Of a stretch of DNA of 46,977 bases, positions 2,115 through 42,942 are shown piece by piece. Where the stretch lies: contig DASTFE010000225.1 of NCBI GenBank assembly GCA_035708905.1, forward strand, positions 1-46,977, read 5' to 3'. Each line of letters starts with the position of its first letter. The stretch's first letter is position 1. The position numbers were made by a program, and so were the translations under genes. The DNA comes from Acidimicrobiales bacterium (GTDB lineage Bacteria > Actinomycetota > Acidimicrobiia > Acidimicrobiales > VFJN01). The notes beneath the pieces were generated by a model. The model was not told the DNA's origin. It made no database searches and was given only the letters and a program-made list of their open reading frames with translations.

Positions 2115-2133
2115 ATCTGACGTCGCGTCAGAT
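2115..2133. promoter_or_regulatory. Palindromic operator candidate, family ATCTGAC-N5-GTCAGAT (site A)
   Basis: ATCTGAC GTCGC GTCAGAT, with perfect 7-8 bp arms. On the minus strand it is preceded by and overlaps a -10-like TAGAAT (CCGTAGAATCTGAC...), upstream of the SDR gene 1183-2094. Confidence 0.65.
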
Positions 2134-11325: not shown

Positions 11326-11339
11326 TAGAACGTGTTCTA
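11326..11339. promoter_or_regulatory. KstR-type operator box
   Basis: TAGAACGTGTTCTA is identical to the core at 8437-8450, and 17 nt (GACTAGAACGTGTTCTA) are shared. It overlaps TACAGT (11338-11343), which sits exactly 6 nt before ATG 11350. Confidence 0.7.
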
Positions 11340-11349
11340 CAGTCGGGGC

Positions 11350-19045: not shown

Positions 19046-19711
19046 TCACGGGGAGGGCGGGCGCTGGCCGGTGGTGCCCCAGTAGACCTGGCGGGCGACC
19101 GAGATGCGCACGTCGGCCGTGCGGATACCCCAGAACTCGAAGCCGAGGTGGTGGGCGGCCACGTTGGCCAGGGTGGTGACCAGCGTGCCGGCCTGCGCCA
19201 TGGGCTCGACACCCAGGTTCTTGCCCTCGGCCTGCAGGTCGCTGATGACCCGGGCCAGCTCGGTGGTCACGGCGTTGAGCAGCCGCACCCGGATGTTGCG
19301 GAAGCGCCGGTCGCCCTCGTCGGTGCTGAGATCGACCACGCGCAGCACAGGGCGGTGCTGGTCCCAGAACTCGAAGAAGGCGTCGGTCAGGTCGAGCGCC
19401 GTCTGGTAGCCGGCCCTGCCCTTCCAGTTGCCCTCGGCCACGAGCCGCACCAGGCGCTCGCCGTCGAGCGCCATCTCCTGGGCCAGCACGAGGATCGCGG
19501 CCTCGACGTCGGCGAAGTACTGGTAGAACGTCGCCGGCGAGGTGCCGGCCTCGCGGGCGATGTCGATGACCTTGATCGACCGGTAGGACGTCGTGCGGAG
19601 CATGGCCGCGGTGCACTCGAGCAGCCGCTGCCGCGTGGCCCGCCCCCGCCGCCCCGGCACCCGCCCGTCCGCCGCCCGCAGGTCTTCGGCCTGCTCCACC
19701 TGTTCAGCCAC
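19046..19711 (-). CDS. TetR-family transcriptional regulator
   Basis: 221 aa, GTG start. N-terminal HTH RQRLLECTAAMLRTTSYRSIKVIDIAREAGTSPATFYQYFADVEAA. It is the only DNA-binding regulator I can recognise in the window. Confidence 0.9.
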   Translation of the reverse strand: MAEQVEQAEDLRAADGRVPGRRGRATRQRLLECTAAMLRTTSYRSIKVIDIAREAGTSPATFYQYFADVEAAILVLAQEMALDGERLVRLVAEGNWKGRAGYQTALDLTDAFFEFWDQHRPVLRVVDLSTDEGDRRFRNIRVRLLNAVTTELARVISDLQAEGKNLGVEPMAQAGTLVTTLANVAAHHLGFEFWGIRTADVRISVARQVYWGTTGQRPPSP

Positions 19712-19728: not shown

Positions 19729-19749
19729 TCCCTGACGGACCATCAGGGA
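19729..19749. promoter_or_regulatory. Palindromic operator candidate upstream of the TetR gene (variant of the CTGAC-N5-GTCAG family)
   Basis: TCCCTGA-CGGACCA-TCAGGGA has a perfect 7-bp inverted repeat. Read in the family register it is CCCTGAC GGACC ATCAGGG. It lies 4 nt from a minus-strand TAGCCT (19719-19724), which is 7 nt from the TetR GTG. Confidence 0.6.
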
Positions 19750-22794: not shown

Positions 22795-23541
22795 ATGCCG
22801 ACCCACCTGCACTCGGTCGTGTTCGACGCCGCCGACCCGCCGGGGCTGGCCCGGTTCTGGGCGGCGCTGACCGGCTGGACCGTCAGCCACGAGGGTCCCG
22901 ACGAGGTGGTGGTCGGGCCGTCCGCCGGGGCCGGCCTGCCGCTCGTGTTCGTCCCTGTCGACGACCCCAAGGTGGTCAAGAACCGGGTGCACATCGATCT
23001 CGACAGCCGCTCGGCCGACGACCAGGCCGCCCTCGTCGACCTCGCGCTGGGGGCCGGGGCGACGCGGGCCGACATCGGCCAGGGCGCCACGCCCTGGGTG
23101 GTGCTGGCCGACCCGGAGGGCAACGAGCTGTGCGTCCTCGACCCCCGACCCGACTACGCCGAGGCCGGTGCGATCGCCGCGATCGTGCTGGACACGCCCG
23201 ACCCGGGCGCTCTGGCGCCGTTCTGGGCCGCGGCCACGGGGTACGCCGTCGAGACCCAGCCCGACGGCGACGTCCGGCTGGTCCCGCCCGGGGGCCGCGG
23301 CCCGCGGCTCGAGCTGCTGAGGAACGACGACCCCAAGGTGGCGAAGAACCGGGTGCACCTGGACGTCGCGCCCGGCGCCGCCGACGACCACGGCGCGGAG
23401 GTCGAACGCCTGCGGGCCCTCGGCGCCACCGACGCCGACGTCGGCCAGGGCCGGCGTCCGTGGACGGTGCTCGCCGACCCGCACGGCAACGAGCTGTGCG
23501 TGCTCGGCCCTCGTGACCGAACCGACGCCCGTGTAATCTGA
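22795..23541 (+). CDS. Tandem VOC (glyoxalase/bleomycin-resistance/dioxygenase) domain protein
   Basis: 248 aa made of two homologous halves (FWAALTGW...KNRVHIDL...PWVVLADPEGNELCVL and FWAAATGY...KNRVHLDV...PWTVLADPHGNELCVL). Confidence 0.85.
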   Translation: MPTHLHSVVFDAADPPGLARFWAALTGWTVSHEGPDEVVVGPSAGAGLPLVFVPVDDPKVVKNRVHIDLDSRSADDQAALVDLALGAGATRADIGQGATPWVVLADPEGNELCVLDPRPDYAEAGAIAAIVLDTPDPGALAPFWAAATGYAVETQPDGDVRLVPPGGRGPRLELLRNDDPKVAKNRVHLDVAPGAADDHGAEVERLRALGATDADVGQGRRPWTVLADPHGNELCVLGPRDRTDARVI

Positions 23542-23555
23542 CACGGCGTCAGATT
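23535..23555. promoter_or_regulatory. Palindromic operator candidate, family ATCTGAC-N5-GTCAGAT (site B)
   Basis: AATCTGAC ACGGC GTCAGATT has perfect 8-bp arms. It overlaps a -10-like TAATCT and the VOC stop codon. SD GGGAG and ATG 23576 follow. Confidence 0.65.
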
Positions 23556-23575: not shown

Positions 23576-24778
23576 ATGCCTGCCACCGTCGAGATCCCCA
23601 AGATCATCAGCGTCGACGACCACGTGGTCGAGCCGGCCCACGTGTGGCAGACGTGGCTGCCCGCCGCCTTCCGCGACCGCGGGCCCCGCGTCGAGCGGCG
23701 CGGCGTGGGGGGCATGCGCCACGTCGGCGGCGGCCACTACGAGCAGGCCTTCGACGACGACGCGCCCGACAAGGCCGACTGCTGGGTGTTCGAGGACGTC
23801 GTCTACGTCCACAAGCGGCACGTGGCGGCCGTGGGCTACCCCCGCGACCAGATGACCATGACGCCCATGACCTACGACGAGATGCGGCCCGGCTGCTACG
23901 ACCCCCGGGCACGGGTCGAGGACATGGAGCTGAACCACGTCGAGGCCTCGCTCTGCTTCCCGACCTTCCCCCGCTTCTGCGGGCAGACGTTCACCGAGGC
24001 CACCGATCGCGAGCTCGGCCTGGCGTGCGTGCGGGCCTACAACGACTGGATGGTCGAGGAGTGGTGCGGCGACTCGGGCGGCCGCCTGATCCCGCTGATC
24101 ATCGTGCCGCTCTGGGACGCCGAGCTGGCCGCCGCCGAGGTCCGTCGCAACGCCGCCCGGGGGGTGCACGCCGTCTGCTTCAGCGAGATCCCGGTCCACC
24201 TGGGGCTGCCCTCGATCCACTCGGGTTCCTGGGACCCCTTCTTCGCGGCCTGCCAGGAGACGCGGACCACGATCAACATGCACATCGGCTCGTCGTCGCG
24301 CATGCCGGCCACGTCACCCGACGCGCCCACCGGGGTGGCGGCCACGCTCAGCTTCAACAACGCCATGGCCTCGATGAGCGACTGGCTGTTCTCGGGCAAG
24401 CTGGTGCAGTTCCCCGAGCTGACGCTCGCCTACAGCGAGGGCCAGATCGGCTGGATCCCCTACATCCTCGAGCGGGCCGACACCGTGTGGGAGGAGCACC
24501 GGGCCTGGGCCCGCACCAAGGACCTGGTGCCCGAGCCGCCGTCGACCTACTACTACCGGCAGATCTACGGCTGCTTCTTCCGCGACCGCCACGGCATCGA
24601 GGCGATCGACGTCGTGGGCCCCGACAACGTGACCTTCGAGACCGACTACCCCCACACCGACTCGACCTGGCCCGACACGAAGAAGGTGGCCGAGGAGCTC
24701 ATGGCCGGCGTGCCCCAGGACGTCGTCGACAAGGTGATGCGCACCAACGCGGCCCGCATGCTGCACCTCGACCTCTGA
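23576..24778 (+). CDS. Amidohydrolase-2 family metal-dependent hydrolase (paralogue of 11350-12585)
   Basis: 400 aa. IPKIISVDDHVVEPAHVW, NHVEASLCFP, YNDWMVEEW, MHIGSSS, ETDYPHTDS. Collinear with the first paralogue. Confidence 0.9.
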   Translation: MPATVEIPKIISVDDHVVEPAHVWQTWLPAAFRDRGPRVERRGVGGMRHVGGGHYEQAFDDDAPDKADCWVFEDVVYVHKRHVAAVGYPRDQMTMTPMTYDEMRPGCYDPRARVEDMELNHVEASLCFPTFPRFCGQTFTEATDRELGLACVRAYNDWMVEEWCGDSGGRLIPLIIVPLWDAELAAAEVRRNAARGVHAVCFSEIPVHLGLPSIHSGSWDPFFAACQETRTTINMHIGSSSRMPATSPDAPTGVAATLSFNNAMASMSDWLFSGKLVQFPELTLAYSEGQIGWIPYILERADTVWEEHRAWARTKDLVPEPPSTYYYRQIYGCFFRDRHGIEAIDVVGPDNVTFETDYPHTDSTWPDTKKVAEELMAGVPQDVVDKVMRTNAARMLHLDL

Positions 24779-24815: not shown

Positions 24816-26306
24816 GTGGTGCTGGCCGCCACGGTCCGCGAGGCCGCCCGCCGCTTCCACGACCTGCCGGCGCTCGTCGACCCCGACGGCTGGCCGGTCG
24901 GCTACGCCGACCTCGACCGCCGTTCCGACGCGGTGGCCGCCGCGCTGGCGGCCCGGGGGGTGGGCGAGGGCGACCGGATCGTGCTGCGGGTCCCGTCCGA
25001 CAGCGGCTACGTCGTCGCCTACGTCGCCGCGGCCAAGCTGGGCGCCGTCACCGCCGGCATCAACCCCCGGCTGGCGCCCCCCGAGCAGCAGGCGCTGGTC
25101 GAGCTGGCCGACGCCGCCGTCGTGCTTGCCGAGGCCGGCGAGGTGGCCGAGCTCGAGGCCGCCGGGCGGGCCGCCGTCGAGCGGGACGGGCCCCCGCCGC
25201 CGCTGCCCGCCGATCCCGACCGTCCGGTGGCCATCGTGTTCACGTCGGGCACGACCGGGCTGCCCAAGGGCGCCGTGTTCTGCGAGCGCCAGCTCGAGGC
25301 CGTGGCGGGGACCGACACGGGCGGGGCGTGGGCGCCGGTGGGCCGGCCAGGACCGGCGATGCTGGCCTCGACGCAGTTCGCCCACGTCGGCTTCACCACC
25401 AAGCTGCCGTGGTACCTGCGGCTGGCGACGCGGACCCACATCCTCGGCCGGTGGCGGGCCGACGACGCCCTGCGCACCATCGCCGAGCAGCGCATGCCCT
25501 CGATCGGCGGGGTGGCGCCGCAGCTCGCCCTGATGGTGCGCTCGCCCGAGGTCGCCCGCCACGACTGGGACCACGTGAAGACCGTGGTGGTCGGCGGCGC
25601 CGCCTCACCCCCCGCCCTGGTGGCGGCCGTGCGCGAGCGCTTCGGTGCCGCCTACTCGATCCGCTACTCGTCCACCGAGTCGGGCGGCTGCGGCACCGGC
25701 ACCGCCTTCGACGCCGACGCCGACGAGGCCCTGCACACCGTCGGGCGCCCCCGCCCGGGCGTCGAGATGGCGGTGCGAGACGACGGCGGCGCCGAGGTCG
25801 CCGCCGGCGAGGTGGGCGAGCTGTGGCTGCGCTCGCCCACCCAGATGTCGGGCTACTGGCGCGATCCCGAGGGCACGGCCGCCGCCATCGTCGACGGCTG
25901 GCTGCGCACCGGCGACCTGGCCCGCGTCGACGAGCGGGGGCTGCTGCGCTTGGCGGGGCGGGTCAGGGAGATGTTCATCCGGGGTGGCTACAACGTGTAC
26001 CCGGCCGAGGTCGAGGCCGCGCTCGCCGCCCACCCGGCCGTGGCCGAGGTGGCGGTGGTGCCCCGGCCCGACCCGGTGATGGGCGAGATCGGGGTGGCCG
26101 TCGTGGCCCCGGCCGCGGATCGCCCGGCACCGACGCTCGAGGAGCTGGGCGCCTTCCTCGCCGGGAGGGTGGCGGCCTACAAGATCCCCGAGGACCTGCG
26201 CATCGTCCCCGAGCTGCCGCTCACGCCCATGCAGAAGGTCGATCGCCGCTCGCTGGCGGCCGACGAGGCATCCCGGCAGACGCCGCCGCGCGACCGGGCG
26301 TCATGA
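24816..26306 (+). CDS. Acyl-CoA synthetase / AMP-dependent ligase
   Basis: 496 aa, GTG start. IVFTSGTTGLPKGA, YSSTESGG, TGDLARVDERGLLRLAGR, GGYNVYPAEVE, and the terminal TPMQKVDRR lysine. Confidence 0.9.
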   Translation: MVLAATVREAARRFHDLPALVDPDGWPVGYADLDRRSDAVAAALAARGVGEGDRIVLRVPSDSGYVVAYVAAAKLGAVTAGINPRLAPPEQQALVELADAAVVLAEAGEVAELEAAGRAAVERDGPPPPLPADPDRPVAIVFTSGTTGLPKGAVFCERQLEAVAGTDTGGAWAPVGRPGPAMLASTQFAHVGFTTKLPWYLRLATRTHILGRWRADDALRTIAEQRMPSIGGVAPQLALMVRSPEVARHDWDHVKTVVVGGAASPPALVAAVRERFGAAYSIRYSSTESGGCGTGTAFDADADEALHTVGRPRPGVEMAVRDDGGAEVAAGEVGELWLRSPTQMSGYWRDPEGTAAAIVDGWLRTGDLARVDERGLLRLAGRVREMFIRGGYNVYPAEVEAALAAHPAVAEVAVVPRPDPVMGEIGVAVVAPAADRPAPTLEELGAFLAGRVAAYKIPEDLRIVPELPLTPMQKVDRRSLAADEASRQTPPRDRAS

Positions 26307-27179
26307 CGCCAGATGTCGCCCCAGGTTCACCGGGGACTCGGGCGGGTAGCCGCCCTCGCCCAGCATGGCCCGCGACAAGGGCGTGAGCAGGTCGAACAGC
26401 TCGTCGGCGCGGTCACCGAGGCGGGCGACGACCTCGCGCTCCGACCGGTCGGTGGCGATCTCGATCTGCTCACGCAGGTCACGACCGGCGTCGGTGAGGG
26501 CGCCGTCGCCGTCGAGCAGCCCCCGCTCGGTCAGCCGCCCGCGGGCTGCGGCGACGTCGTCGGCGTCGTAGCCCCGGGTCCAGACGTAGCTGCCGGGCTC
26601 GATGCCCCACCAGAGCTCGGACAGCAGGGTGATCTCCGTGGAGTCGACGTGCGAGATCCAGGCGGCGACGTGGCCGTCGCCCCGGTGCTCGCGCACCCGG
26701 TCGGCCGCCCGCCACAGCCGTCCGGCCGGGTCGTCGGGTCCGGGCACCGGCAGGCCGGCCAGGCCCGAGAACAGCGGGCGCCCCGAGCCGTCGACGCCGT
26801 CGGTCATCTCCAGCAGCAGGTCGGCGGCGGCCAGGAACCGGTCGGTGGGTTCGCCGGCCATGCGGAGCATCTGGTCGCGGGCGCCCGCGAGCCGGGCGTC
26901 GAGCAGTTGCTCGGGCGTCGCCTTCTGCCACCCGCCGGTGACGGCCCGCTCGACGACCGCCGGCTTGAACGCGGCGAACACGCCGGCGACGACCCGCCAC
27001 GGCGCCGCACCCAGGCAGGCGCTGCGGCTGCAGAAGTAGCCCTCGAAGTAGTTCAGCCCCAGGGCCCGGTACCGCTCCTGCGCCTCGGGTGCGAAGTAGA
27101 CGGCGGCCGCCACGGGCTCGACCATCCGGCCGAGCCGCCGTGCCGTGGCGCGGGCGGTCGCGTCGCTGTCGGTCGTCAA
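26301..27179 (-). CDS. Conserved hypothetical protein (last gene of the thiolase operon)
   Basis: 292 aa. TTG start 9 nt after GAAGGGGA. Coding-like composition (YFAPEAQERYRALGLNYFEGYF...HRGDGHVAAW...). Family not recognised. Confidence 0.6.
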   Translation of the reverse strand: MTTDSDATARATARRLGRMVEPVAAAVYFAPEAQERYRALGLNYFEGYFCSRSACLGAAPWRVVAGVFAAFKPAVVERAVTGGWQKATPEQLLDARLAGARDQMLRMAGEPTDRFLAAADLLLEMTDGVDGSGRPLFSGLAGLPVPGPDDPAGRLWRAADRVREHRGDGHVAAWISHVDSTEITLLSELWWGIEPGSYVWTRGYDADDVAAARGRLTERGLLDGDGALTDAGRDLREQIEIATDRSEREVVARLGDRADELFDLLTPLSRAMLGEGGYPPESPVNLGRHLAS

Positions 27180-27198
27180 TGCAGCGTCCCCTTCGTGG

Positions 27199-28398
27199 TC
27201 AGCCGGACGGTTCGGTGCCCAGGATCGAGACGAAGCTCACCATCTCGCCCGGGTAGCCGCCCAGGTTGTGCGTGAGCGCCAGGTTGCGGTCGCCGAGCGT
27301 GGCGATGCGGCGCTCGGCCGGTGCCTCGCCCCGGAGCTGCAGCCAGGCCTCGAACATCATGCGCAGGCCGCTGGCCCCCACCGGATGGCCGAACGACTTG
27401 AGGCCGCCGTCGGGGTTGACCGGCAGCTCGCCGTGCAGGTCGAAGGTGCCGGCCAGCACCTCCTTCCAGGCGGTGCCCCGGTCGGCGAACTGCAGGTCCT
27501 CCATCAGCACCAGCTCGGTGGGCGTGAAGCAGTCGTGCACCTCGGCCATGGCGATCTCGGCGCGGGGATCGGTCACGCCGGCCTGGGCGTAGGCGTCGCG
27601 GGCGCAGGCGACGATCTCGGGGAACGTCGTGTAGTCGTAGGACGGGTCGGTCAGGCCCGAGCCGTTGCCGGCGACGAACGACAGCGCCTTCACGTACAGG
27701 GGACGGTCGGTGTAGCGGTGGGCGTCCTCGGCCCGGACCACGATGGCAGCAGCGGCGCCGTCGGCCACGCCGGCGCAGTCGAACACCGACAGGTCGCCCG
27801 CCACGGCCGGCATGGCGCAGATCTGGTCGACCGACATCTCGCGGCGGAACTGGGCCCGCTCGTTGCGGGCGCCGTTGTGGTGGTTCTTCGAGGCGATGCG
27901 GGCGAGCACCCGGCGCAGCTCACCGCGCTCGACGCCGTAGCGCTCGGCGTAGGCGGGGGCCACCATCGAGAACATGGCGGCGGCGGTGAGCGTGCGGTTG
28001 GTGCCGTCGGTGGGGATCGGGAAGGCGTTCAGGCCCTGGTAGCCCCCGTCCTTGACCTTCTCGACCCCGACGGCCATGGCGATGTCGTAGGCGCCGGCGG
28101 CCACGGCGTACGCCGCCTGGCGCAGCGCTTCCGAGCCGGTGGCACACATGTTCTCGACCCGGGTGACGGGCTTGCCCTCGAGCCGGAGCGGCTTGGCCAG
28201 CACCATGCCGCTCATCCCCGACTGGGCGGTGCCGAGCCAGTAGGCGTCGACCTCGTCCGCAGTGACCCCGGCGCCCGCGAAGGCCTCGCCCGTGGCGTCG
28301 AGCAGCAGCTCGTCGACGCCCTTGTCCCAGTGCTCGGCGAACCGGGTGCAGCCCATGCCGACGATGGCCACCCGGTCGCGGATGCCGTGCGAGCCCAT
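27199..28398 (-). CDS. SCP2/lipid-transfer-type thiolase (acetyl-CoA C-acyltransferase-like)
   Basis: 399 aa. VAIVGMGCTRF, nucleophile Cys in VENMCATGSEAL, the HDCF motif (AEVHDCFTPTE) typical of SCP2-type thiolases, GHPVGASG, HNLGG. Confidence 0.9.
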   Translation of the reverse strand: MGSHGIRDRVAIVGMGCTRFAEHWDKGVDELLLDATGEAFAGAGVTADEVDAYWLGTAQSGMSGMVLAKPLRLEGKPVTRVENMCATGSEALRQAAYAVAAGAYDIAMAVGVEKVKDGGYQGLNAFPIPTDGTNRTLTAAAMFSMVAPAYAERYGVERGELRRVLARIASKNHHNGARNERAQFRREMSVDQICAMPAVAGDLSVFDCAGVADGAAAAIVVRAEDAHRYTDRPLYVKALSFVAGNGSGLTDPSYDYTTFPEIVACARDAYAQAGVTDPRAEIAMAEVHDCFTPTELVLMEDLQFADRGTAWKEVLAGTFDLHGELPVNPDGGLKSFGHPVGASGLRMMFEAWLQLRGEAPAERRIATLGDRNLALTHNLGGYPGEMVSFVSILGTEPSG

Positions 28399-28400
28399 GG

Positions 28401-29813
28401 TCAGCTCCCCTCGCTGGTGGCCGCGCCGGCGGTGCGCACCGGGCAGGCCTTCCAGAAGTAGTTGTGGATGCCGTCGGCCGTGAACAGCTTGCGGAACGTC
28501 ATCTCGACCCGGCCGCCGATGGCGACGTCGTCCGGGTCGACGTCGGTCAGCTCGACCGGCAGGCGGCCCCCGCCGTCGAAGTCGACCACGGCGAACACGA
28601 CGGGCGGCGAGGGCGAGTAGGCCAGCCGGTCGACCGTGTAGGTGACGACCGTGCCGGTGCTGTCGGCCATCGGGCGCTCGCGGTCGTCACCGGGCGCCGG
28701 GGGCAGGTGCACGTGGCCGGCGCCGTCCTGCGAGGCCACGAAGCCGAACTTCCAGTCCCGCGAGCGCGCCGCGGCCGACGCCGAGGGGCGGGCGGGCTCG
28801 GGCCGGCGCGGCGGCTCGACCGGCAGGTGGCCGCGCCAGGCGAGCGCCTTGCCGTAGGGCACCGGGCCGCCGGCGGCGACCTGGTCGGCGACGCTGGGGG
28901 CGGGACGGCCGGCGACGAGCGCCTCGGTGGTGCGCACGACCAGCACGTCGGCGCCGTCGGCCAGCACGACGACGGCGATGGTCTCGCCGGGGCCGGCGGC
29001 GTCGAGCGCGCGGGCGAGCAGCAGGGCGGGGTGGGCGGCGCCGGTGAAGCCCACCGTGGCGTCGAGTCCGGCGTCGAGCCGGTCGCCCAGACCGAGCTTG
29101 CGGCCCAGGGCGGTGCCGGCCCGGGCGTGCGAGGTGGCGACGACGACCCTGTCGACCGCGTCGGCGGCGAGGCCGGCGCCAGCGAGGGCGTCGTGCCAGG
29201 CGGCGAGGCCGAGGTCGACATAGCGGGTCTCGCCGAAGCGCTCCTCCCACACCTTCGAGTGGGCGTCGCCCGGCGTGCGCCAGCGGTCGAGGAACTCCTC
29301 GGTGGCGCTGACCGTCGCCACCACCTCGGCGAGCAGCGGGCCGTCGTACGCCGTCCCGACCAGCAGGGCGGCGGCGCCGTCGCCGCCGGTGGCCTCGTCG
29401 GGCGAGCCGGGCCGGCCGGTGCGGATGTCGCCGGCGACGACCAGCGCGGGCGTCCCGGTGCCGAGCCCGGCCCGCAGCGCACCGACCGCGGACCGCACGG
29501 CGCCGTTGACGTCGAAGGCCGGCGCCCCGGCCGGCAGGCGCAGCGCGGCGTGCAGGGCCGTGGCGTTGGTCTTGTCGAGGTAGGGCGGGCTGGTGGTGGC
29601 GAACCACAGCGACGCCGGGGCGGCGTCGCGCGGCGCTGCGGCCAGGGCCGTGCGGGCGGCGGCGACACCCATGGTGGTGGCGTCCTCGTCGTACGAGGCG
29701 ACGGTGCGGGTGCCCGCCCCGCCCCCGGTGCCGGCCACGGGGCGGATCTCCGACCGGTCGAGGCGGCGGTACGGCAGGTAGGCGCCGTAGCTCAGGATCC
29801 CCCGTGGTGCCAT
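28401..29813 (-). CDS. HMG-CoA-synthase-like domain fused to a DUF35-type OB-fold domain
   Basis: 470 aa. The N-terminal ~340 aa align by eye to HMGCS/KAS-III-like proteins (ILSYGAYLPYRRL, SYDEDATTMGVAAA, GGDGAAALLVG). The C-terminal ~110 aa form a DUF35 OB-fold (GTVVTYTVDRLAYSP..VVFAVVDFDGGGRLPVELTD..IGGRVEMTF). Confidence 0.8.
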   Translation of the reverse strand: MAPRGILSYGAYLPYRRLDRSEIRPVAGTGGGAGTRTVASYDEDATTMGVAAARTALAAAPRDAAPASLWFATTSPPYLDKTNATALHAALRLPAGAPAFDVNGAVRSAVGALRAGLGTGTPALVVAGDIRTGRPGSPDEATGGDGAAALLVGTAYDGPLLAEVVATVSATEEFLDRWRTPGDAHSKVWEERFGETRYVDLGLAAWHDALAGAGLAADAVDRVVVATSHARAGTALGRKLGLGDRLDAGLDATVGFTGAAHPALLLARALDAAGPGETIAVVVLADGADVLVVRTTEALVAGRPAPSVADQVAAGGPVPYGKALAWRGHLPVEPPRRPEPARPSASAAARSRDWKFGFVASQDGAGHVHLPPAPGDDRERPMADSTGTVVTYTVDRLAYSPSPPVVFAVVDFDGGGRLPVELTDVDPDDVAIGGRVEMTFRKLFTADGIHNYFWKACPVRTAGAATSEGS

Positions 29814-29832
29814 GCGGTCAGGCTACGGCGGC

Positions 29833-29851
29833 ATCTGACGGGTCGTCACAT
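29833..29851. promoter_or_regulatory. Palindromic operator candidate, family ATCTGAC-N5-GTCAGAT (site C)
   Basis: ATCTGAC GGGTC GTCACAT has one arm mismatch. On the minus strand the layout is operator-N7-TAGCCT(29820-29825)-N6-ATG(29813) of the HMGCS-like gene. Confidence 0.65.
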
Positions 29852-30004
29852 CTCGCGGGACACGTCAGCCGCCCCTCGCCGCACGGGCGGTGCGCAGACG
29901 CGCCGGCGACGACGGCGAGGCCCCAGCGCCCGACCGCCTCGATGTCGGCGACGACCTGCGCGGCGGCGTCTCCGGCCCGGAGGTAGGTGATGGCCACGTC
30001 GGCG

Positions 30005-31498
30005 TCACTCGTAGTGGCGCAGCGCCTCGCGCAGCTCGTCGGGGGGCACCCGCAGGTGGCGGCACACCAGCACCGGTGTGCCCGCCATCTCGTTGGCGAC
30101 CCCGTCGATCGTCTGGACCACGGCGACCGGGCCGAGGACGTCGCAGTACGGCGCGAGGGTGCTCGGCCGGTAGCGGACCGTGACGAACGTGCCGGCCGGC
30201 TCGCCGTCCGGCCACCAGTCGGCGTAGCTGTTGTGGGCCGACAGCGCGGTGCCCCGCGGCAGCCCCCGGGCGGGGCCGTACAGGTCGATCGCGGCCGCCT
30301 CGCCGTAGCTGGCGGTGATCACGCGCACGTCCGCCCGCTCGTCGGCCGGCAGCACCTCGACGACGGCGGCGACCACGTCGACCATCTCGGGCCAGCCGAC
30401 CTGCTCGCCCAGCTCGTCGTTCACGTCGTGGAGGACGTCGGCGTACACGTCCACGGGCGCGACCGGCACGACGACGGCCAGCGGGATCAGCCCGTTGGCC
30501 GCCAGCGCCGCCACCGCTCGCCGCCACCGCTGCCGCCGGGCCGACAGCCACGGCGCCGCGGCCACCGCGCCCGCCGCCGCCCCGAGCGCGTACAGCGGAC
30601 CGAGGTAGTAGGCCTTGCCCCCCACCACCAGCAGCACCAGGGCCACGGTCGCCGAGGCCACCGCCAACACCCGCCACCGGGCGTCGCGCCACAGCCACAC
30701 CAGGCCGGCGCCCACCAACGGCACCGCCAGCGGACCGACGAACGCGACCTGCCGCAGCACGAAGCCGGCCGGGCCCTCCTCGTCGCGCACCTGGGCGTTG
30801 TTGTTGCGCGTGAACTCGAGCGTCGGCCAGTCGTTGGCCGCCTGCCAGGCCAGGTTGGGCAACCACAGCACCAGCGCCACCGCGGCGCCCGCCCACAGCC
30901 AGGGCGTGCGCAGGTGGCGGCGCGCGGAGGGCACCGCCACCAGCCCGGCGGCCAGCCCCACGCCGAGCAGGGCGATCGTCCACTTGGTCTGCAGGCCGAC
31001 GCCCGCGACGGCGCCGACGCCCAGCCACCAGCGCGAGTCCGCGCCCTTCAGCAGGCGCACGACCAGCAGCACCACCACCGCCCACCAGAGCTGGTCGAGC
31101 ACGACCGTCTGGAACAGCGAGCCCGTGGCCAGGTACAGCGGCATGGTCGCGGTCGCCAGCGCAGCCAGGATGGCCGCCCGCCCGTCGCCGCCCAGCTCGC
31201 GGGCGATCGACGCGGCCACGACGACCACCGCGGCGTGCGCCGCGCCGGCCACGGCCCGCAGGGCCCAGAGGTGCTCCCCCACCAGCCCGGTGATCGCCCG
31301 GGCCAGCAGCGGGACCAGGGGCGGCTGGTCGACGTAGCCGAGCGCCGGGTGCCGGCCCGCGGCGAGGTGGTACAGCTCGTCGCGGTGGAAGCCGTAGCGG
31401 CCGCCGAGCACCAGGTGGAGAGCGAGCACCCCGCCGGCGATCACCAGGTCGGGGCGCACGCGACGGCCCACGCCGGCGCCGGCGTGCGTCTGGGTCAC
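30005..31498 (-). CDS. GT39/GT-C family membrane glycosyltransferase (PMT/ArnT-like)
   Basis: About 497 aa from GTG 31498, with many TM helices. First-loop motif FHRDELYHLAAGRHPALGYVDQPPLVPLLA and a soluble C-terminal domain. The track start 31612 would run through the operator and the neighbouring start codon. Confidence 0.78.
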   Translation of the reverse strand: MTQTHAGAGVGRRVRPDLVIAGGVLALHLVLGGRYGFHRDELYHLAAGRHPALGYVDQPPLVPLLARAITGLVGEHLWALRAVAGAAHAAVVVVAASIARELGGDGRAAILAALATATMPLYLATGSLFQTVVLDQLWWAVVVLLVVRLLKGADSRWWLGVGAVAGVGLQTKWTIALLGVGLAAGLVAVPSARRHLRTPWLWAGAAVALVLWLPNLAWQAANDWPTLEFTRNNNAQVRDEEGPAGFVLRQVAFVGPLAVPLVGAGLVWLWRDARWRVLAVASATVALVLLVVGGKAYYLGPLYALGAAAGAVAAAPWLSARRQRWRRAVAALAANGLIPLAVVVPVAPVDVYADVLHDVNDELGEQVGWPEMVDVVAAVVEVLPADERADVRVITASYGEAAAIDLYGPARGLPRGTALSAHNSYADWWPDGEPAGTFVTVRYRPSTLAPYCDVLGPVAVVQTIDGVANEMAGTPVLVCRHLRVPPDELREALRHYE

Positions 31499-31576
31499 TG
31501 GACGCCATGATGCCTGCGGGCGCCGGCGCGTGCCGGGCCGCGGGCCCTGCGGGCCGCTACCAGGTGACCACCCGAG

Positions 31577-31595
31577 ATCTGACGGACCGTCACAT
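31577..31595. promoter_or_regulatory. Palindromic operator candidate, family ATCTGAC-N5-GTCAGAT (site D)
   Basis: ATCTGAC GGACC GTCACAT is followed by N7, TAGCCT (31603-31608), N6 and ATG 31615. It lies in the divergent region shared with the GT39 gene. Confidence 0.65.
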
Positions 31596-31614
31596 CCGGT
31601 CGTAGCCTGCATCC

Positions 31615-32871
31615 ATGCAGCTCGGTGACGTGGCGAACGCGGGCGCGGCCGCCTACGGCAAGCCGCTCGACGGCGTCCGCGTGCTGGCCGCCGAGCAGAT
31701 GCAGGCGCTCCCCTTCGCCACCCAGGTGCTCGCCCGGCTGGGCGCGGACGTGGTGAAGGTCGAGCACCCGATCGCCGGCGAGTCGGGGCGGGGCTCGTTC
31801 CCCCACATGGTCGACCCGGAGGGGCGCACGGTGGGCGCCACGTTCCTGCGCAACAACCTGGGCAAGCGCAGCGTCGGCGTCGACCTCAAGCACCCGCGGG
31901 GCCGCGAGCTGTTCCTGTCACTCGTGCCCAGGTTCGACGTGGTCTGCGAGAACTTCAAGGCGGGCACGATGGACCGCCTCGGCCTCGGCTACGACGTCAT
32001 CGCCGAGCGGCACCCGGCGGCGATCCTGCTCTCGCTCTCGGGGTTCGGCAACACCGTCGCCACCCCGTACCGGTCGTGGCCGGCGTACGCCTCGATCGTC
32101 GAGGCCATGTCGGGCATCTACGAGTACAAGCGCGAGCCGGGGCGGGGCCCGCGGGCCAACCCGGTGGGTGCCCTGGGTGACATCAGCTCGGCGCTGTTCG
32201 GCACGATCGGCGTGCTCGCCGCCTTGCGGCACCGCGACCGGACCGGCGAGGGCCAGCACGTCGACGTGGCCATGCTCGACGCCGTCGTGGCCATGACCGA
32301 CATCGTCGCCAACCTGTGGTCGATGGGGGTCCACGGGCCCGTCGAGCAGGAGATCAAGGCGATCGTCGACACGTTCGCGGCCGGCGACGGCTGGTTCGTG
32401 CTCCAGTGCGTGCGGCCGCAGCACTTCACCGCGCTCGCCGAGGTGATCGGCCGCCCCGAGTGGAACGACGATCCCCGCTTCGCCACGTCGGCGGGCTGGA
32501 TCGACAACATGGACGAGGCCCGCGCCGCGATCGAGTCGTGGGCCCGCCCGCTCACCAGGTTCGAGGCCGCGGCCGCCCTCAGCGCCGCGGGCCTGGCCGC
32601 GGGCCCGTGCCTGACCCCGCCCGAGGTGATCGCCGACCCCCACGTCCGGGCTCGCGACATGCTGGTCGAGGTGCCCCGCAGCGACGACCCCGAGGGCACG
32701 CAGGGGCCCGTCCTCGTGCCGGGCAACCCGATCAAGATGTCGAAGGTGGCCGAGGGGCCCGAGACCCGGGTGCCCTGGCTGGGCGAGCACACCGACGAGG
32801 TGCTGGCCGGCGAGCTGGGCCTGGGCGAGGACGACCTGGCGGCCCTGCGGGCCGACGGCGTCATCGCCTGA
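31615..32871 (+). CDS. Family III (CaiB/BaiF) CoA-transferase
   Basis: 418 aa. LDGVRVLAAEQMQALPFATQVLARLGADVVKVE, VVCENFKAGTMDRLGLGY, SGFG. Confidence 0.9.
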   Translation: MQLGDVANAGAAAYGKPLDGVRVLAAEQMQALPFATQVLARLGADVVKVEHPIAGESGRGSFPHMVDPEGRTVGATFLRNNLGKRSVGVDLKHPRGRELFLSLVPRFDVVCENFKAGTMDRLGLGYDVIAERHPAAILLSLSGFGNTVATPYRSWPAYASIVEAMSGIYEYKREPGRGPRANPVGALGDISSALFGTIGVLAALRHRDRTGEGQHVDVAMLDAVVAMTDIVANLWSMGVHGPVEQEIKAIVDTFAAGDGWFVLQCVRPQHFTALAEVIGRPEWNDDPRFATSAGWIDNMDEARAAIESWARPLTRFEAAAALSAAGLAAGPCLTPPEVIADPHVRARDMLVEVPRSDDPEGTQGPVLVPGNPIKMSKVAEGPETRVPWLGEHTDEVLAGELGLGEDDLAALRADGVIA

Positions 32872-33945: not shown

Positions 33946-34389
33946 ATGCACGCCGACCGCTTCGCTCCCCTGCCGGCCGACGTCGCCGCCCGCTGGCGCA
34001 GGTTCCCCCACTGGGACCGCACCTACTTCCCCAACCTGGTCGGCCTCCAGGTCGAGGAGCTGCGCACCGACTACTGCCGGATGCGGCTGCCCTACCGGCC
34101 CGAGCTCGAGCAGCCGGCCGGGGTCGTGCACGGCGGCGCCATCGCCACCCTGATCGACACGGTGGTCGTCCCCGCCGTGGGGGCGGCGTACGACCCGGAC
34201 TGGATCTACGTGACGCTCACGATGGACATCCAGTACCAGGGGGCCGTGGTCGGTGAGGACGCGGTCGCCGAGGGTTGGGTCACCCAGCGGGGACGGTCGA
34301 TCGTCTTCTGCCGGGCCGAGGTGACGACCGAGAGCGGCCGGCAGGCGGCGTCCGGCACCCTGACCTACAAGGTGGGCCCGCCTCGCTGA
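33946..34389 (+). CDS. PaaI/hotdog-fold acyl-CoA thioesterase
   Basis: 147 aa. GVVHGGAIATLIDTVV and RGRSIVFCRAEV are typical of PaaI/4HBT-type thioesterases. TAGCGT lies 6 nt before the ATG. Confidence 0.85.
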   Translation: MHADRFAPLPADVAARWRRFPHWDRTYFPNLVGLQVEELRTDYCRMRLPYRPELEQPAGVVHGGAIATLIDTVVVPAVGAAYDPDWIYVTLTMDIQYQGAVVGEDAVAEGWVTQRGRSIVFCRAEVTTESGRQAASGTLTYKVGPPR

Positions 34390-34427
34390 CGGCCCTCCGG
34401 TCGAGCCGCACGGCGGTAGCTGCCACG

Positions 34428-35549
34428 ATGAGGGCCATGACCGCCGCTGCCCACGAGTCGTCCCCCTCGCCCGGCTGGCTGCTGGACGAGACGGCCAGCG
34501 CCGGGCGCGAGAACCTCGACGCCGACCACGTCGCCCGGGCCGCCGTGGCCTCAGGCCGCGGTGCCGGTACGGTCACGCCCGTGGCCAAGGCTCCGGCGAC
34601 CGAGGTGCAGGTGGGCGGGCGCACCGTGCGGATCTCCAACCCGGACCGGGTGTACTTCCCCGCCACGGGGGCGACCAAGCTCGACCTGGTCGACTACTAC
34701 CTGGCGGTCGGGCCGGGCATCGTCAACGCCCTGCGCGAGCGGCCCTGCATGATGCACCGCTTCCCCACCGGGGTCAGCGGCGAGAAGGTCCACCAGAAGC
34801 GCGTGCCCGCCGGGGCGCCGCCGTGGCTCGAGACCGTGCGGGTCCACTTCCCCCGCTACGGGCAGCACGCCGACGAGCTGTGCGTGACCGAGCTGGCCCA
34901 CGTGATCTGGGCGGTGCAGATGTCGACCGTCGAGTTCCACCCGTGGAACTCCCGGCGGGCCGACGTCGAGAAGCCGGACGAGTGGCGGATCGACCTCGAC
35001 CCCATGCCGGACTGCCCGCTCGCCACCGTCCGCCGGGTGGCCGAGGTCGTGCACGAGGTGCTGGACGAGCTCGGGGCGGTGGGCTGGCCCAAGACCTCCG
35101 GCGGCAACGGGATCCACGTCTACGTGCGCATCGAGCCGTCGTTCGGGTTCGCCGACGTGCGCCGCGCCGCGCTGGCGTTCGCCCGCGAGGTCGAGCGCCG
35201 GGCGCCGGACGCGGTGACGACCACCTGGTGGCGCAAGGACCGCGACCCCACCGCGGTGTTCGTGGACTACAACCAGAACGCCCGCGACCACACCATGGCC
35301 GCGGCGTACTCGGTGCGCGGCCTCCCCGAGGCCACGGTGTCGACGCCGATCACGTGGGACGAGGTCGACGCCGTCGAGCCGGGCGACTGCACCATTGCGA
35401 CCGTGCCCCGGCGCTTCGCCGAGGTCGGCGACCTCCACGCGGGCATCGACCGCGCCACCTTCGCCATCGACGAGCTGCTCGAGTGGGCCGAGCGTGACGA
35501 GCGCGCCGGCGCGGTCGACGCCGGCGAACCGGACGACCAGCAGGGCTGA
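34428..35549 (+). CDS. Stand-alone LigD-type primase-polymerase (PolDom) protein
   Basis: RISNPDRVYFP..TKLDLVDYY, FPTGVSGEKVHQKR, EFHPW, WRIDLDP (metal Asp pair), KTSGGNGIHVYV, VDYNQNARDHT. The ~55-aa N-terminal extension means the start is uncertain. Confidence 0.85.
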   Translation: MRAMTAAAHESSPSPGWLLDETASAGRENLDADHVARAAVASGRGAGTVTPVAKAPATEVQVGGRTVRISNPDRVYFPATGATKLDLVDYYLAVGPGIVNALRERPCMMHRFPTGVSGEKVHQKRVPAGAPPWLETVRVHFPRYGQHADELCVTELAHVIWAVQMSTVEFHPWNSRRADVEKPDEWRIDLDPMPDCPLATVRRVAEVVHEVLDELGAVGWPKTSGGNGIHVYVRIEPSFGFADVRRAALAFAREVERRAPDAVTTTWWRKDRDPTAVFVDYNQNARDHTMAAAYSVRGLPEATVSTPITWDEVDAVEPGDCTIATVPRRFAEVGDLHAGIDRATFAIDELLEWAERDERAGAVDAGEPDDQQG

Positions 35550-37188: not shown

Positions 37189-37206
37189 TCTGACGCTCCG
37201 TCAGAT
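37188..37206. promoter_or_regulatory. Palindromic operator candidate, family ATCTGAC-N5-GTCAGAT (site E)
   Basis: ATCTGAC GCTCC GTCAGAT has perfect arms. It overlaps a -10-like TAATCT (37186-37191) and the stop of the preceding gene. SD GGGAAAGG and ATG 37243 follow. Confidence 0.65.
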
Positions 37207-38424: not shown

Positions 38425-38431
38425 GCGCAGC

Positions 38432-40671: not shown

Positions 40672-40698
40672 CACGACAGCCGGGAGGCAACCCGACCC

Positions 40699-42923: not shown

Positions 42924-42942
42924 ACCTGACGACCCGTCAGAC
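42924..42942. promoter_or_regulatory. Palindromic operator candidate, family ATCTGAC-N5-GTCAGAT (site F)
   Basis: ACCTGAC GACCC GTCAGAC keeps the CTGAC/GTCAG core intact. It is followed by N7, TACCGT (42950-42955), N6 and ATG 42962. Confidence 0.6.

What the first reader, a model, noticed from the sequence alone, without database searches (positions are those of the whole stretch)
27199..29813. HMG-CoA-synthase-like protein with the catalytic Cys replaced, fused to a Cys-less DUF35 domain and paired with an SCP2-type thiolase
Gene 28401-29813 aligns by eye to archaeal/bacterial HMGCS, with EDATTMGVAAA matching the EDxxT general-base region and GGDGAAALLVG also conserved. Where HMGCS has the acetyl-accepting Cys (..FACKAGT..) this protein reads FDVNGAVRSAVGAL, that is Val. 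The later GN(L/Y)YT Asn region reads GFTGAAHP. The C-terminus is a DUF35 OB-fold. The rubredoxin-like CxxC...CxxC zinc ribbon that normally precedes it has no Cys (KFGFVASQDGAGHVHLPP). Two nucleotides downstream begins an SCP2-type thiolase with both catalytic Cys intact (NMCATGS, HDCF). In archaea, thiolase, HMGCS and DUF35 form a channelling complex. In steroid degraders, DUF35 domains scaffold thiolase-like Ltp enzymes. A covalent fusion of an apparently dead HMGCS to a degenerate DUF35 next to a live thiolase looks like a scaffold-only derivative of that complex. I am not aware that this variant has been characterised. The operon is behind operator site C and ends with an unknown 292-aa protein (26301-27179).
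Basis: partly seen in the sequence, partly recalled or inferred. Interest (0 to 1): 0.75.

Follow-up and report, generated by a model that had tools for sequence, protein, structure and literature searches.

The report
Dead HMG-CoA-synthase/DUF35 scaffold with live thiolase
Two adjacent genes encode a working thiolase and a non-catalytic partner (a dead HMG-CoA-synthase-like domain fused to an OB-fold domain that has lost its zinc finger); the pairing is common in bacteria, one example was characterised in 2026, and here it most likely carries out the chain-cleaving step of a regulated fatty-acid-like breakdown pathway.

Summary
Gene 28401-29813(-) encodes a 470-aa fusion of an archaeal-type HMG-CoA-synthase-like domain and a DUF35 OB fold. 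A complete SCP2/archaeal-type thiolase (27199-28398) starts 2 nt downstream.

Three corrections:
1. The whole HMGS E-C-H-N tetrad is gone, not only the Cys (E->T74, C->V106, H->A226, N->F256).
2. The 292-aa protein is an SCO6745/HTH_67 family member, not an unknown.
3. The architecture is neither rare nor uncharacterised. There are more than 3000 clusters at 50% identity. PhlA and MucA are known dead HMGS subunits. A fused P. fluorescens ACAT/HMGS-DUF35 complex was shown in 2026 to do thiolysis only (PMC12960953).

What is new here:
- This clade has lost the DUF35 zinc ribbon. A decay series runs from intact ribbon, to Cys-less, to shortened, to deleted.
- A palindromic operator (TGACG-N3-CGTCA) conserved across genera ties the operon to a beta-oxidation-like regulon (acyl-CoA dehydrogenases, enoyl-CoA hydratases, SDR, family III CoA-transferases, acyl-CoA ligase).

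Best reading: a scaffold subunit plus a degradative thiolase acting on an unidentified acyl-CoA. Modest interest; a new variant of a known kind.

The parts
28401..29813 (-). Gene for the 470-aa fusion protein: dead HMGS-like domain, ribbon remnant and DUF35 OB fold
   Evidence: ORF; NCBIfam and Pfam; PDB sequence hits; AlphaFold model pLDDT 90; Foldseek; more than 7500 homologues
28824..29813 (-). HMGS-like thiolase-fold domain (aa 1-330). Former catalytic positions: T74 (29592-29594), V106 (29496-29498), A226 (29136-29138), F256 (29046-29048)
   Evidence: Alignment to 6esq_I and PhlA; residue and codon check. These columns are never Cys or His in 72 orthologues and 93 diverse representatives
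28659..28757 (-). Degenerate Cys-less remnant of the DUF35 zinc ribbon (aa 353-385), with an 8-residue deletion relative to intact relatives
   Evidence: Family alignments. PF12172 is absent here but present in relatives that keep the ribbon
28434..28658 (-). DUF35 OB-fold domain (aa 386-460)
   Evidence: PF01796 E=9e-15; best PDB sequence hit is 6esq_E DUF35, E=0.004; confident beta-barrel strands in the model
27199..28398 (-). SCP2/archaeal-type thiolase with the full catalytic set: C85 (28144-28146), H288DCF (27526-27537), G337-H338
   Evidence: NCBIfam NF004810 at 594 bits, above the cutoff of 403; 6esq_A 1.5e-50; these residues are invariant in 63 orthologues
29832..29852 (.). Palindromic operator-like site (core TGACGGGTCGTCA at 29836-29848), 22 nt upstream of the fusion gene ATG
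   Evidence: The same palindrome lies 28-50 bp upstream of the fusion gene in most of the ~40 related loci that have one there (two lie at 80 and 86 bp), including Mycobacteriales MAGs
26301..27179 (-). SCO6745/HTH_67 family gene, 19 nt downstream of the thiolase. Probably co-transcribed here but not a conserved partner
   Evidence: Pfam and NCBIfam; found near the pair in only the 3 closest loci
31615..32871 (+). Family III CoA-transferase, divergently transcribed, with its own operator copy at 31580-31592. The most frequent conserved neighbour of the pair
   Evidence: Pfam; operator; present in 34 of 80 loci
19046..19711 (-). TetR-family regulator (TetR_C_38) with an operator-like site (19733-19745, 1 mismatch) just upstream. 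Candidate repressor of the regulon (inference)
   Evidence: Pfam; site
23539..23551 (.). Operator copy (1 mismatch, same flanks) upstream of the Amidohydro_2 (23576-24778) and acyl-CoA ligase (24816-26306) genes
37191..37203 (.). Operator copy upstream of the ACAD (37243-38424), CoA-transferase III (38432-39595) and ACAD (40699-41832) genes
42927..42939 (.). Operator copy upstream of the enoyl-CoA hydratase gene (42962-43789)
2118..2130 (.). Operator copy upstream of the SDR gene (1183-2094, minus strand)

Best explanation
The two genes encode a hetero-oligomeric degradative thiolase.

The 399-aa SCP2/archaeal-type thiolase is the only catalyst (Cys85 nucleophile, HDCF, GHP). The 470-aa partner is a non-catalytic structural subunit. 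Its HMGS-like thiolase-fold domain has lost all four HMGS catalytic residues. Its C-terminal DUF35 OB fold is fused in cis and has lost the zinc ribbon.

By analogy with the archaeal thiolase/HMGCS/DUF35, PhlACB and MucABC complexes, and with the fused P. fluorescens ACAT/HMGS-DUF35 enzyme, the partner is inferred to hold the thiolase in a soluble, competent conformation and to help form the shared CoA/substrate chamber at the interface.

The complex would catalyse CoA-dependent thiolysis of a 3-oxoacyl-CoA. This would be the last step of a dedicated beta-oxidation-like pathway whose other enzymes (acyl-CoA ligase, family III CoA-transferases, PimC/PimD-like acyl-CoA dehydrogenases, enoyl-CoA hydratases, SDR) share the same palindromic operator. 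That operator is probably bound by a TetR-type repressor.

Shown here: homology, loss of the tetrad and ribbon, intact thiolase residues, conserved synteny and operator, purifying selection.
Inferred: physical complex, scaffold role, thiolytic direction, the repressor's identity.
Unknown: the physiological substrate.
For: Residue loss in the HMGS-like domain:
- The tetrad maps to T74/V106/A226/F256.
- The Cys- and His-equivalent columns are never Cys or His and vary freely (V/L/A/P..., A/S/Y/T...) in 72 orthologues and 93 diverse representatives.

Thiolase:
- C85, H288, D289, F291, G337 and H338 are invariant in 63 orthologues.
- It passes the curated NF004810 cutoff.

Synteny and selection:
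- The thiolase gene lies immediately downstream of the fusion gene in 65 of 80 loci, nearly all loci with enough flank.
- dN/dS is 0.28-0.40 for the fusion against 0.13-0.18 for the thiolase. Both are under purifying selection, and the partner is about twice as relaxed.

Structure:
- The fold matches archaeal HMGCS (target-normalised TM-score, TMt, 0.88), PhlA and MucA.
- The OB part matches the DUF35 of 6esq.

Literature:
- PhlA is inactive and catalysis sits in PhlC (PMC6392133).
- The fused PfACAT/HMGS-DUF35 makes no HMG-CoA. It thiolyses acetoacetyl-CoA, and this depends on the His of HDxF (PMC12960953).
- DUF35 scaffolds these complexes (PMC12329534).

Context:
- Operator copies precede the SDR, Amidohydro_2/ligase, fusion/thiolase, CoA-transferase, ACAD and ECH genes.
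- The site upstream of the fusion gene is conserved in ~40 loci across Acidimicrobiia and Mycobacteriales.
- The Rhodococcus DK17 pDK3 homologue sits among thiolase, SDR, crotonase, ACAD, CaiB-type CoA-transferase and TetR genes.
Against:
- The characterised P. fluorescens proteins could not be retrieved, so a direct sequence comparison is missing.
- A set of residues in the 'dead' domain is invariant across the family (D42-E43-D44, R107, R179, W189-EERF). This is also compatible with a retained ligand-binding function or a new function.
- Asn at the tetrad position is kept in 44 of 72 close orthologues.
- None of the regulon enzymes reaches an NCBIfam equivalog cutoff, so the pathway substrate is not identified.
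- The in-vitro Pf substrate (acetoacetyl-CoA) may not be physiological.
Confidence: 0.75

Rival explanations
1. The HMGS-like domain is not dead but neofunctionalised. A remodelled pocket built from the family-invariant residues (D42-E43-D44, R107, R179, the WEERF segment) carries out a second reaction on the thiolase substrate or product (for example hydrolysis, decarboxylation or isomerisation), or acts as a specific acyl-binding or allosteric site.
For: About 27 positions are at least 90% conserved across 93 diverse representatives, including charged residues next to the former nucleophile (R107). The gene is under purifying selection. The shared chamber between the HMGS-like and thiolase subunits is retained in PhlACB and MucABC (PMC12960953).
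Against: D-E-D is also conserved in true archaeal HMGCS and in inactive PhlA, so it is not a new feature. The former E, C and H positions vary freely, and no alternative nucleophile is conserved (S/A/G at 105, V/L/A/P at 106). The Pf complex showed only thiolase-dependent chemistry.
Confidence: 0.12
2. The pair works in the biosynthetic direction, as a Claisen-condensing acetoacetyl-CoA or longer 3-oxoacyl-CoA synthase (reverse beta-oxidation or a mevalonate-like route), as in the archaeal ancestor.
For: The thiolase is closest to the archaeal biosynthetic ACAT (6esq_A, 1.5e-50). Thiolase reactions are reversible.
Against: The exergonic HMGS step that pulls condensation in archaea is abolished by loss of the tetrad. 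The window has no mevalonate-pathway, PKS or NRPS genes. The Pf complex made no acetoacetyl-CoA from acetyl-CoA. The neighbours and the operator regulon are catabolic in type.
Confidence: 0.05
3. It is a CoA-independent C-acyltransferase of the PhlACB/MucABC type, or a retro-aldolase of the Ltp2/Sal type acting on steroid side chains.
For: PhlA-type chains are the top PDB sequence and fold hits for the HMGS-like domain. DUF35 partners are typical of Ltp2 and Sal.
Against: PhlC and MucB lack the HDxF motif, but here HDCF is present and invariant. Ltp2 lacks the thiolase nucleophile, but here Cys85 is invariant. The thiolase matches PhlC at only 3e-24 and Ltp2 at 2.6e-19, against 1.5e-50 for archaeal ACAT. 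No type III PKS, NRPS, MaoC-DUF35 hydratase or recognisable steroid genes lie nearby.
Confidence: 0.04

Closest known systems
P. fluorescens PfACAT/HMGS-DUF35 complex (PMC12960953, Nat Commun 2026)
   Same: Two-gene module: a fused HMGS-DUF35 protein lacking the E-C-H-N tetrad, plus an ACAT-type thiolase that keeps the catalytic Cys, HDxF and GHx. No PKS or NRPS neighbours. It belongs to the large class of 'orphan' bacterial HMGS/ACAT/DUF35 loci.
   Different: The window protein lacks the zinc-ribbon Cys ligands and part of the ribbon. The gene order in the window is fusion then thiolase. The paper calls the Pf complex a possible evolutionary intermediate without a pathway, whereas here the pair is embedded in a conserved, operator-controlled beta-oxidation-like regulon.
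[quoted passage not shown]
   Same: All three modules are homologous: thiolase 1.5e-50, HMGS-like domain 7e-15 and target-normalised TM-score (TMt) 0.88, OB fold E=0.004. The thiolase catalytic motifs are identical.
   Different: The HMGS tetrad E82/C114/H238/N270 is replaced by T/V/A/F. DUF35 is covalently fused and Zn-free. There is no mevalonate-pathway context. The inferred direction is catabolic rather than biosynthetic channelling.
PhlACB (P. protegens, PDB 5M3K) and MucABC (S. macacae, PDB 9VBO) C-acetyltransferases
   Same: The HMGS-like subunit is catalytically dead (PhlA has Gly at the Cys position and Cys at the Glu position) and acts with DUF35 as a structural partner of the thiolase-like catalytic subunit. 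PhlA-type chains give the best PDB sequence E-values and the single top Foldseek hit for the N-domain (archaeal HMGCS has the higher TM-score).
   Different: PhlC and MucB have lost HDxF and transfer acetyl groups to phenolic or tetramic-acid acceptors within biosynthetic gene clusters. Here HDCF is intact, DUF35 is fused rather than separate, and the context is catabolic.
DUF35-associated SCP2-type thiolases and aldolases (BbsAB benzoylsuccinyl-CoA thiolase; ChsH2(DUF35)-Ltp2; Shy(DUF35)-Sal)
   Same: A DUF35 OB-fold domain partners a thiolase-fold enzyme acting on bulky acyl-CoAs in catabolic pathways. BbsB keeps HDxF and performs thiolysis.
   Different: Those systems have no HMGS-like module. 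[quoted passage not shown] Ltp2 and Sal are aldolases without the thiolase nucleophile arrangement.

Membership tests
HMG-CoA synthase (functional enzyme) | Catalytic tetrad Glu-Cys-His-Asn (E82/C114/H238/N270 in M. thermolithotrophicus HMGCS) | tested here: not met
   The positions align to T74/V106/A226/F256. The Cys and His columns are never Cys or His across 72 orthologues and 93 representatives.
HMG-CoA synthase (functional enzyme) | Score above the curated NCBIfam equivalog cutoffs | tested here: not met
   PRK04262 128 bits against 244; TIGR00748 78 against 353; TIGR01835 36 against 360. No Pfam HMG_CoA_synt hit at E<=0.01.
HMGS/ACAT/DUF35 complex superfamily (archaeal complex, PhlACB, MucABC, Pf fused type) | HMGS-like thiolase-fold subunit homologous to archaeal HMGCS/PhlA | tested here: met
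   PDB phmmer hits 6e-18 to 7e-15. Foldseek target-normalised TM-score (TMt) 0.81-0.88 to 6esq_I, 9skh, 5m3k and 9vbo.
HMGS/ACAT/DUF35 complex superfamily | Adjacent SCP2/archaeal-type thiolase with a catalytic Cys (CxS) and GHx | tested here: met
   C85-A-T, G337-H338-P; 6esq_A 1.5e-50. The gene is adjacent in 65 of 80 loci.
HMGS/ACAT/DUF35 complex superfamily | The three modules form a physical complex | not testable with these tools
   No multimer prediction or experiment was available. Support is indirect only: invariant synteny with a 2-nt gap in the window, and precedent in the literature.
Fused, HMGS-inactive, thiolysis-competent type (PfACAT/HMGS-DUF35) | HMGS and DUF35 in one polypeptide, tetrad absent, thiolase keeps HDxF, no PKS or NRPS neighbours | tested here: met
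   The features are as defined in PMC12960953.
Fused, HMGS-inactive, thiolysis-competent type (PfACAT/HMGS-DUF35) | Direct sequence relationship to the characterised P. fluorescens proteins; thiolysis of 3-oxoacyl-CoA | not tested
   The paper gives no accession and no supplement is held. No Pseudomonas member appeared among the listed hits. Activity needs an experiment.
PhlACB/MucABC C-acetyltransferases | The thiolase-like subunit has lost the HDxF motif; the genes lie in a PKS or NRPS cluster | tested here: not met
   H288-D-C-F291 is present and invariant. No PKS or NRPS genes in the window.
DUF35 (canonical two-domain form: PF12172 zinc ribbon + PF01796 OB fold) | OB-fold domain PF01796 | tested here: met
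   E=8.9e-15, 54.8 bits against a cutoff of 27.1. The beta-barrel is confidently modelled.
DUF35 (canonical two-domain form: PF12172 zinc ribbon + PF01796 OB fold) | Cys-x2-Cys-x10-Cys-x2-Cys zinc ribbon | tested here: not met
   No Cys in aa 1-456. PF12172 is not detected. The homologous segment is Cys-less with an 8-aa deletion, whereas 72 of 93 family representatives keep 4-5 Cys.
Ltp2/Sal steroid side-chain aldolases | Thiolase-like protein without the thiolase Cys nucleophile; DUF35 supplied by a MaoC hydratase | tested here: not met
   Cys85 is invariant. The Ltp2 (6ok1_A) match is only 2.6e-19. The DUF35 is fused to an HMGS-like domain, not to MaoC.

The most novel reading that the evidence does not exclude
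Covalent fusion of DUF35 to the dead HMGS domain made the zinc ribbon dispensable. Actinomycetota then lost it stepwise: Cys ligands replaced, loop shortened, and finally the ribbon deleted in Mycobacteriales-type members. In solved DUF35 complexes the zinc finger shapes the partner's substrate cleft, so this loss may have re-shaped the thiolase pocket for a bulkier or dicarboxylic 3-oxoacyl-CoA. On this reading, the abundant 'orphan' HMGS/ACAT/DUF35 loci are not functionless evolutionary intermediates. They are the dedicated thiolases of a conserved, repressor-controlled beta-oxidation regulon for a substrate not yet identified.
Probability: 0.35. Interest if true: 0.5.

Novelty: new variant of a known kind. 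Interest (0 to 1): 0.32.

Why it matters
The general architecture is already described, so the finding does not open a new class. It does add two things.

First, it gives a natural series of zinc-ribbon decay in a DUF35 domain. Every structurally characterised DUF35 binds zinc. The series bears on what the ribbon is for, and on how fusion relaxes constraints on a scaffold.

Second, it gives comparative-genomic evidence that these widespread 'orphan' thiolase complexes have a real catabolic job. The evidence is conserved synteny, a conserved operator and purifying selection. Homologues exist in cultivable Rhodococcus and Mycobacterium strains, so the physiological substrate of a family with thousands of members could be found by genetics.

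Tried and rejected
- Retrieving the P. fluorescens PfACAT/HMGS-DUF35 sequence failed. No supplements are held, the text gives no accession, and a second homologue search seeded with a Burkholderiales member listed no Pseudomonas protein.
- The Vogeli 2018 paper (PMC5879682) is not held, so the CoA-binding residues of the archaeal complex could not be mapped.
- The first AlphaFold run, on a shallow alignment of sequences 68-82% identical to the query, modelled the C-terminal 155 residues poorly (pLDDT below 40). It was replaced by a run on a more diverse alignment.
- NCBIfam scans of the regulon enzymes gave no hit above the curated cutoffs, so no substrate could be assigned.
- The TetR gene could not be tested for co-occurrence with the operator, because in close relatives it would lie just outside the 10-kb flanks. 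Only L054 shows it.
- The sigma-70 promoter and intrinsic terminator scan of 26000-31700 found nothing. This is uninformative in a 74% GC actinobacterial sequence.
- Considered and rejected: a functional HMGS, a PhlACB-type acyltransferase, and an Ltp2-type aldolase (see the membership tests). A pseudogene was also rejected, because dN/dS is well below 1 and the family is conserved across phyla.


Full report
**1. What is in the sequence**

The window is 74% GC. Their third-position GC of 0.88-0.97 is typical of real genes here. The stop of the first gene and the ATG of the second are 2 nt apart. The third ORF starts 19 nt after the second.

**2. The fusion protein**

Pfam detects only the DUF35 OB fold (PF01796, aa 381-441, E=9e-15). 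NCBIfam aligns aa 5-321 with archaeal-type HMG-CoA synthase (PRK04262, E=4e-37), but at 128 bits against a cutoff of 244. The best solved-structure sequence matches are, in order:
- two PhlA proteins of the PhlACB C-acyltransferase (6e-18 and 3e-16);
- the HMGCS of the M. thermolithotrophicus thiolase/HMGCS/DUF35 complex (7e-15);
- MucA (3e-9);
- bacterial HMGCS and FabH.

A first AlphaFold model from a shallow alignment was good only for aa 1-315. A second model, from 57 more diverse sequences, is confident throughout (pLDDT 90.2, pTM 0.92; only the linker at aa 331-350 and the last 8 residues are weak). Its N-domain superposes on 6esq_I with target-normalised TM-score (TMt) 0.88 and 2.1 A rmsd. 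It superposes on PhlA-type and MucA chains with TMt 0.81-0.84. The isolated C-terminal segment matches the DUF35 chain of the archaeal complex (E=0.004) and ChsH2-DUF35.

**3. Catalytic residues**

I counted along the 6esq_I alignment and checked positions in the sequence. The HMGS tetrad used in PMC12960953 (E82, C114, H238, N270) maps to T74, V106, A226 and F256.

The conserved EDATT motif (D42-E43-D44) aligns with D49-E50-D51 of the archaeal enzyme and with DED in inactive PhlA. The catalytic Glu sits in GSES, which reads ATTS here. So all four catalytic residues are gone.

V106 lies at the strand-to-helix elbow (strand 99-103, helix 108-118) where thiolase-fold nucleophiles sit. The whole protein has a single Cys, at position 457.

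This loss is not a quirk of one sequence:
- In 72 orthologues taken from genomes and 93 diverse full-length representatives of 50%-identity clusters, the Cys column is V/L/A/P/T/M and never Cys.
- The His column is A/S/Y/T and never His.
- The Glu column is T/A/S/V.
- The Asn column is mixed (N in 44 of 72 orthologues and 21 of 93 representatives).
- No neighbouring column carries a conserved alternative nucleophile.

**4. The thiolase**

It passes the curated NCBIfam model NF004810 (594 bits against a cutoff of 403). It is closest to the archaeal complex thiolase (6esq_A, 1.5e-50). The matches then weaken in this order: Sulfolobus-type acyltransferases, SCP2 thiolases (6e-36), BbsB (3e-31), PhlC (3e-24) and Ltp2 (3e-19). 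It carries C85 in NMCATGS, H288-D-C-F291 and G337-H338-P. All of these are invariant in 63 orthologues.

**5. Zinc ribbon**

In most of the fused family the segment before the OB fold reads WKFxFxGSRCxxCGxxHLPPxRVCxxCxAxD. This is a canonical C-x2-C-x10-C-x2-C ribbon. 72 of 93 representatives have 4-5 Cys there, and those relatives carry Pfam PF12172. The window protein reads WKFGFVASQD-GAGHVHLPPAP--------GDD. The segment is clearly homologous, has no Cys, and is 8 residues shorter.

The genome loci show a graded series:
- intact ribbon (L037, L057 Burkholderiales, L060, L062, L063, L065 Chloroflexi, L067, L068, L069);
- full length but Cys-less (e.g. L017, L024, L047 Iamia);
- Cys-less and shortened (the window, L001-L008 and others);
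- ribbon deleted altogether (L009, L012, L025 and the Mycobacteriales-type L033, L040, L048, L053, L056, L061).

PMC12329534 states that zinc is bound by four Cys in all structurally characterised DUF35 homologues except Shy (Cys3His), and that the finger shapes the partner's substrate cleft. A zinc-free DUF35 therefore lies outside what has been characterised structurally. That is the one truly variant feature here.

**6. How common it is, and whether it is known**

The word-indexed search found more than 7500 homologues. The closest are 68-82% identical, about 465-485 aa long, and come from Acidimicrobiales and soil metagenomes. They are named "OB-fold domain-containing protein" or "HMG-CoA synthase". 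The exhaustive search of 50%-identity representatives found 3059 clusters at E<=1e-3 and 565 at E<=1e-30, mostly full-length fusions down to about 32% identity. Members occur in Deltaproteobacteria and Bacillaceae, and in Streptomyces, Mycobacterium, Burkholderiales, Chloroflexi and Solirubrobacterales. They also occur on Rhodococcus and M. avium plasmids.

The literature already covers the idea:
- PhlA lacks the Cys and the Glu, and only PhlC residues catalyse acyl transfer (PMC6392133).
- PMC12960953 (January 2026) shows that MucA, PhlA and related sequences lack the E-C-H-N tetrad.
- The same paper mined 1,030 bacterial HMGS/ACAT/DUF35 loci, of which 1,001 have no biosynthetic partners.
- It also characterised a P. 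fluorescens representative with a fused HMGS-DUF35 that lacks the tetrad and an ACAT that keeps Cys, HDxF and GHx. That complex makes no HMG-CoA or acetoacetyl-CoA, but it thiolyses acetoacetyl-CoA, and an H294Y change in HDxF nearly abolishes this.

The window pair meets every architectural criterion of that type. I could not obtain the Pf sequence to test direct relatedness.

**7. Context and likely role**

The thiolase gene follows the fusion gene directly in 65 of 80 related loci, which is essentially all loci with enough flank. The thiolase is always the more conserved of the two (62-93% against 49-83% identity). Against seven close relatives, dN/dS is 0.28-0.40 for the fusion and 0.13-0.18 for the thiolase. 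Both genes are maintained by selection, and the partner is under about twofold weaker constraint. That fits a structural subunit and rules out a decaying pseudogene.

Frequent neighbours are a divergently transcribed family III CoA-transferase (34 loci), acyl-CoA dehydrogenases (29), Amidohydro_2 (19), SDR (17) and enoyl-CoA hydratase (17). The SCO6745/HTH_67 gene and the PMT_2 glycosyltransferase gene appear only in the closest relatives.

A palindrome, ATCTGACG-N3-CGTCAGAT, lies 22 nt upstream of the fusion gene's ATG. Copies also lie upstream of the SDR (1183-2094), the TetR gene (19046-19711), Amidohydro_2 plus acyl-CoA ligase, the CoA-transferase (31615), the ACAD/CoA-transferase/ACAD group (37243-41832) and an enoyl-CoA hydratase (42962). 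That is 8 matches at up to one mismatch against 3.2 expected by chance, and the flanks extend the symmetry. The same palindrome lies upstream of the fusion gene in about 40 related loci, at 28-50 bp in most and at 80 and 86 bp in two. These include Mycobacteriales MAGs whose proteins are only about 60% identical. This is a phylogenetic footprint. The TetR gene carrying a site in its own upstream region is the obvious candidate repressor, but that is inference.

In Rhodococcus sp. DK17 pDK3 the homologous pair sits next to a second thiolase, an SDR and a crotonase. Upstream are a TetR, a CaiB-type CoA-transferase, ACADs, an HMG-CoA lyase and MaoC dehydratases. NCBIfam gives no equivalog-level names for the regulon enzymes. 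The ACADs most resemble PimC/PimD (pimeloyl-CoA dehydrogenase subunits), and the transferases most resemble mesaconate/formyl-CoA transferases. So the substrate remains open.

**8. Interpretation**

The best-supported reading is a hetero-oligomeric degradative thiolase, as set out under Best explanation. The thiolase does the chemistry. The fused dead-HMGS/DUF35 protein is a scaffold that probably also contributes to the CoA/substrate chamber, as in the archaeal, Phl and Muc complexes. The complex would perform the thiolytic step of a repressor-controlled beta-oxidation-like pathway.

This differs in emphasis from PMC12960953, which suggests that such complexes may be evolutionary intermediates without a defined pathway. 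The conserved synteny, operator and purifying selection argue instead for an established catabolic function.

The rivals are less likely, for the reasons given under Rival explanations:
- a neofunctionalised pocket;
- biosynthetic condensation;
- Phl-type acyl transfer;
- Ltp2-type aldol cleavage.

**9. Verdict**

What remains new is the zinc-ribbon loss series and the regulon context. Interest is modest.

Noticed in passing
window 2118-2130, 19733-19745, 23539-23551, 29836-29848, 31580-31592, 37191-37203, 42927-42939: A shared palindromic operator-like motif, ATCTGACG-N3-CGTCAGAT, precedes at least seven transcription units of acyl-CoA metabolism. It is conserved upstream of the fusion gene in ~40 related loci. 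The binding protein is unidentified; the TetR at 19046-19711 is the candidate.
   Followed up: partly
loci L009, L012, L025, L033, L040, L048, L053, L056, L061 (fusion gene near 10001-11400 in most): In these relatives, mostly Mycobacteriales-type MAGs, the zinc-ribbon segment of the fused DUF35 is deleted entirely. The sequence runs from WKFGL straight into the OB fold. This is the end point of the decay series.
   Followed up: partly
window 30005-31612 (-): A PMT_2-type glycosyltransferase ORF is wedged between the divergent CoA-transferase gene and the fusion operon, but only in the closest relatives. The operator at 31580 lies inside the first codons of this ORF, and the Pfam match starts at aa 95, so the real start is probably further downstream.
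   Followed up: no
window 26301-27179 (-): The '292-aa unknown' is an SCO6745/HTH_67 family protein (uncharacterised helix-turn-helix family). It follows the thiolase by 19 nt here, but in the three closest relatives that have it (L001, L002, L004) it is separated from the pair by extra genes.
   Followed up: partly
window 3123-5729 (-): An 868-aa ORF whose AMP-binding domain starts only at aa 345. Either the start is over-called or the acyl-CoA ligase has a long N-terminal extension with no Pfam match.
   Followed up: no
window 11332-12585 (+) and 23576-24778 (+): Two paralogous Amidohydro_2 (PF04909) genes. The second has an operator site and is a recurrent neighbour of the fusion/thiolase pair (19 loci). 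Neither matches any NCBIfam model at E<=1e-10, so the reaction is unknown.
   Followed up: no
window 34275-35549 (+): A LigD primase-polymerase domain gene (E=2e-93) sits in the middle of the acyl-CoA metabolism region and appears unrelated to it.
   Followed up: no
L081 (Rhodococcus sp. DK17 plasmid pDK3, 11995-17488): A cultivable strain carries the same fusion+thiolase pair on a megaplasmid, followed by a second thiolase, an SDR and a crotonase. Upstream are HMG-CoA lyase, ACADs, a CaiB-type transferase and a TetR. This is a tractable system for finding the substrate.
   Followed up: partly
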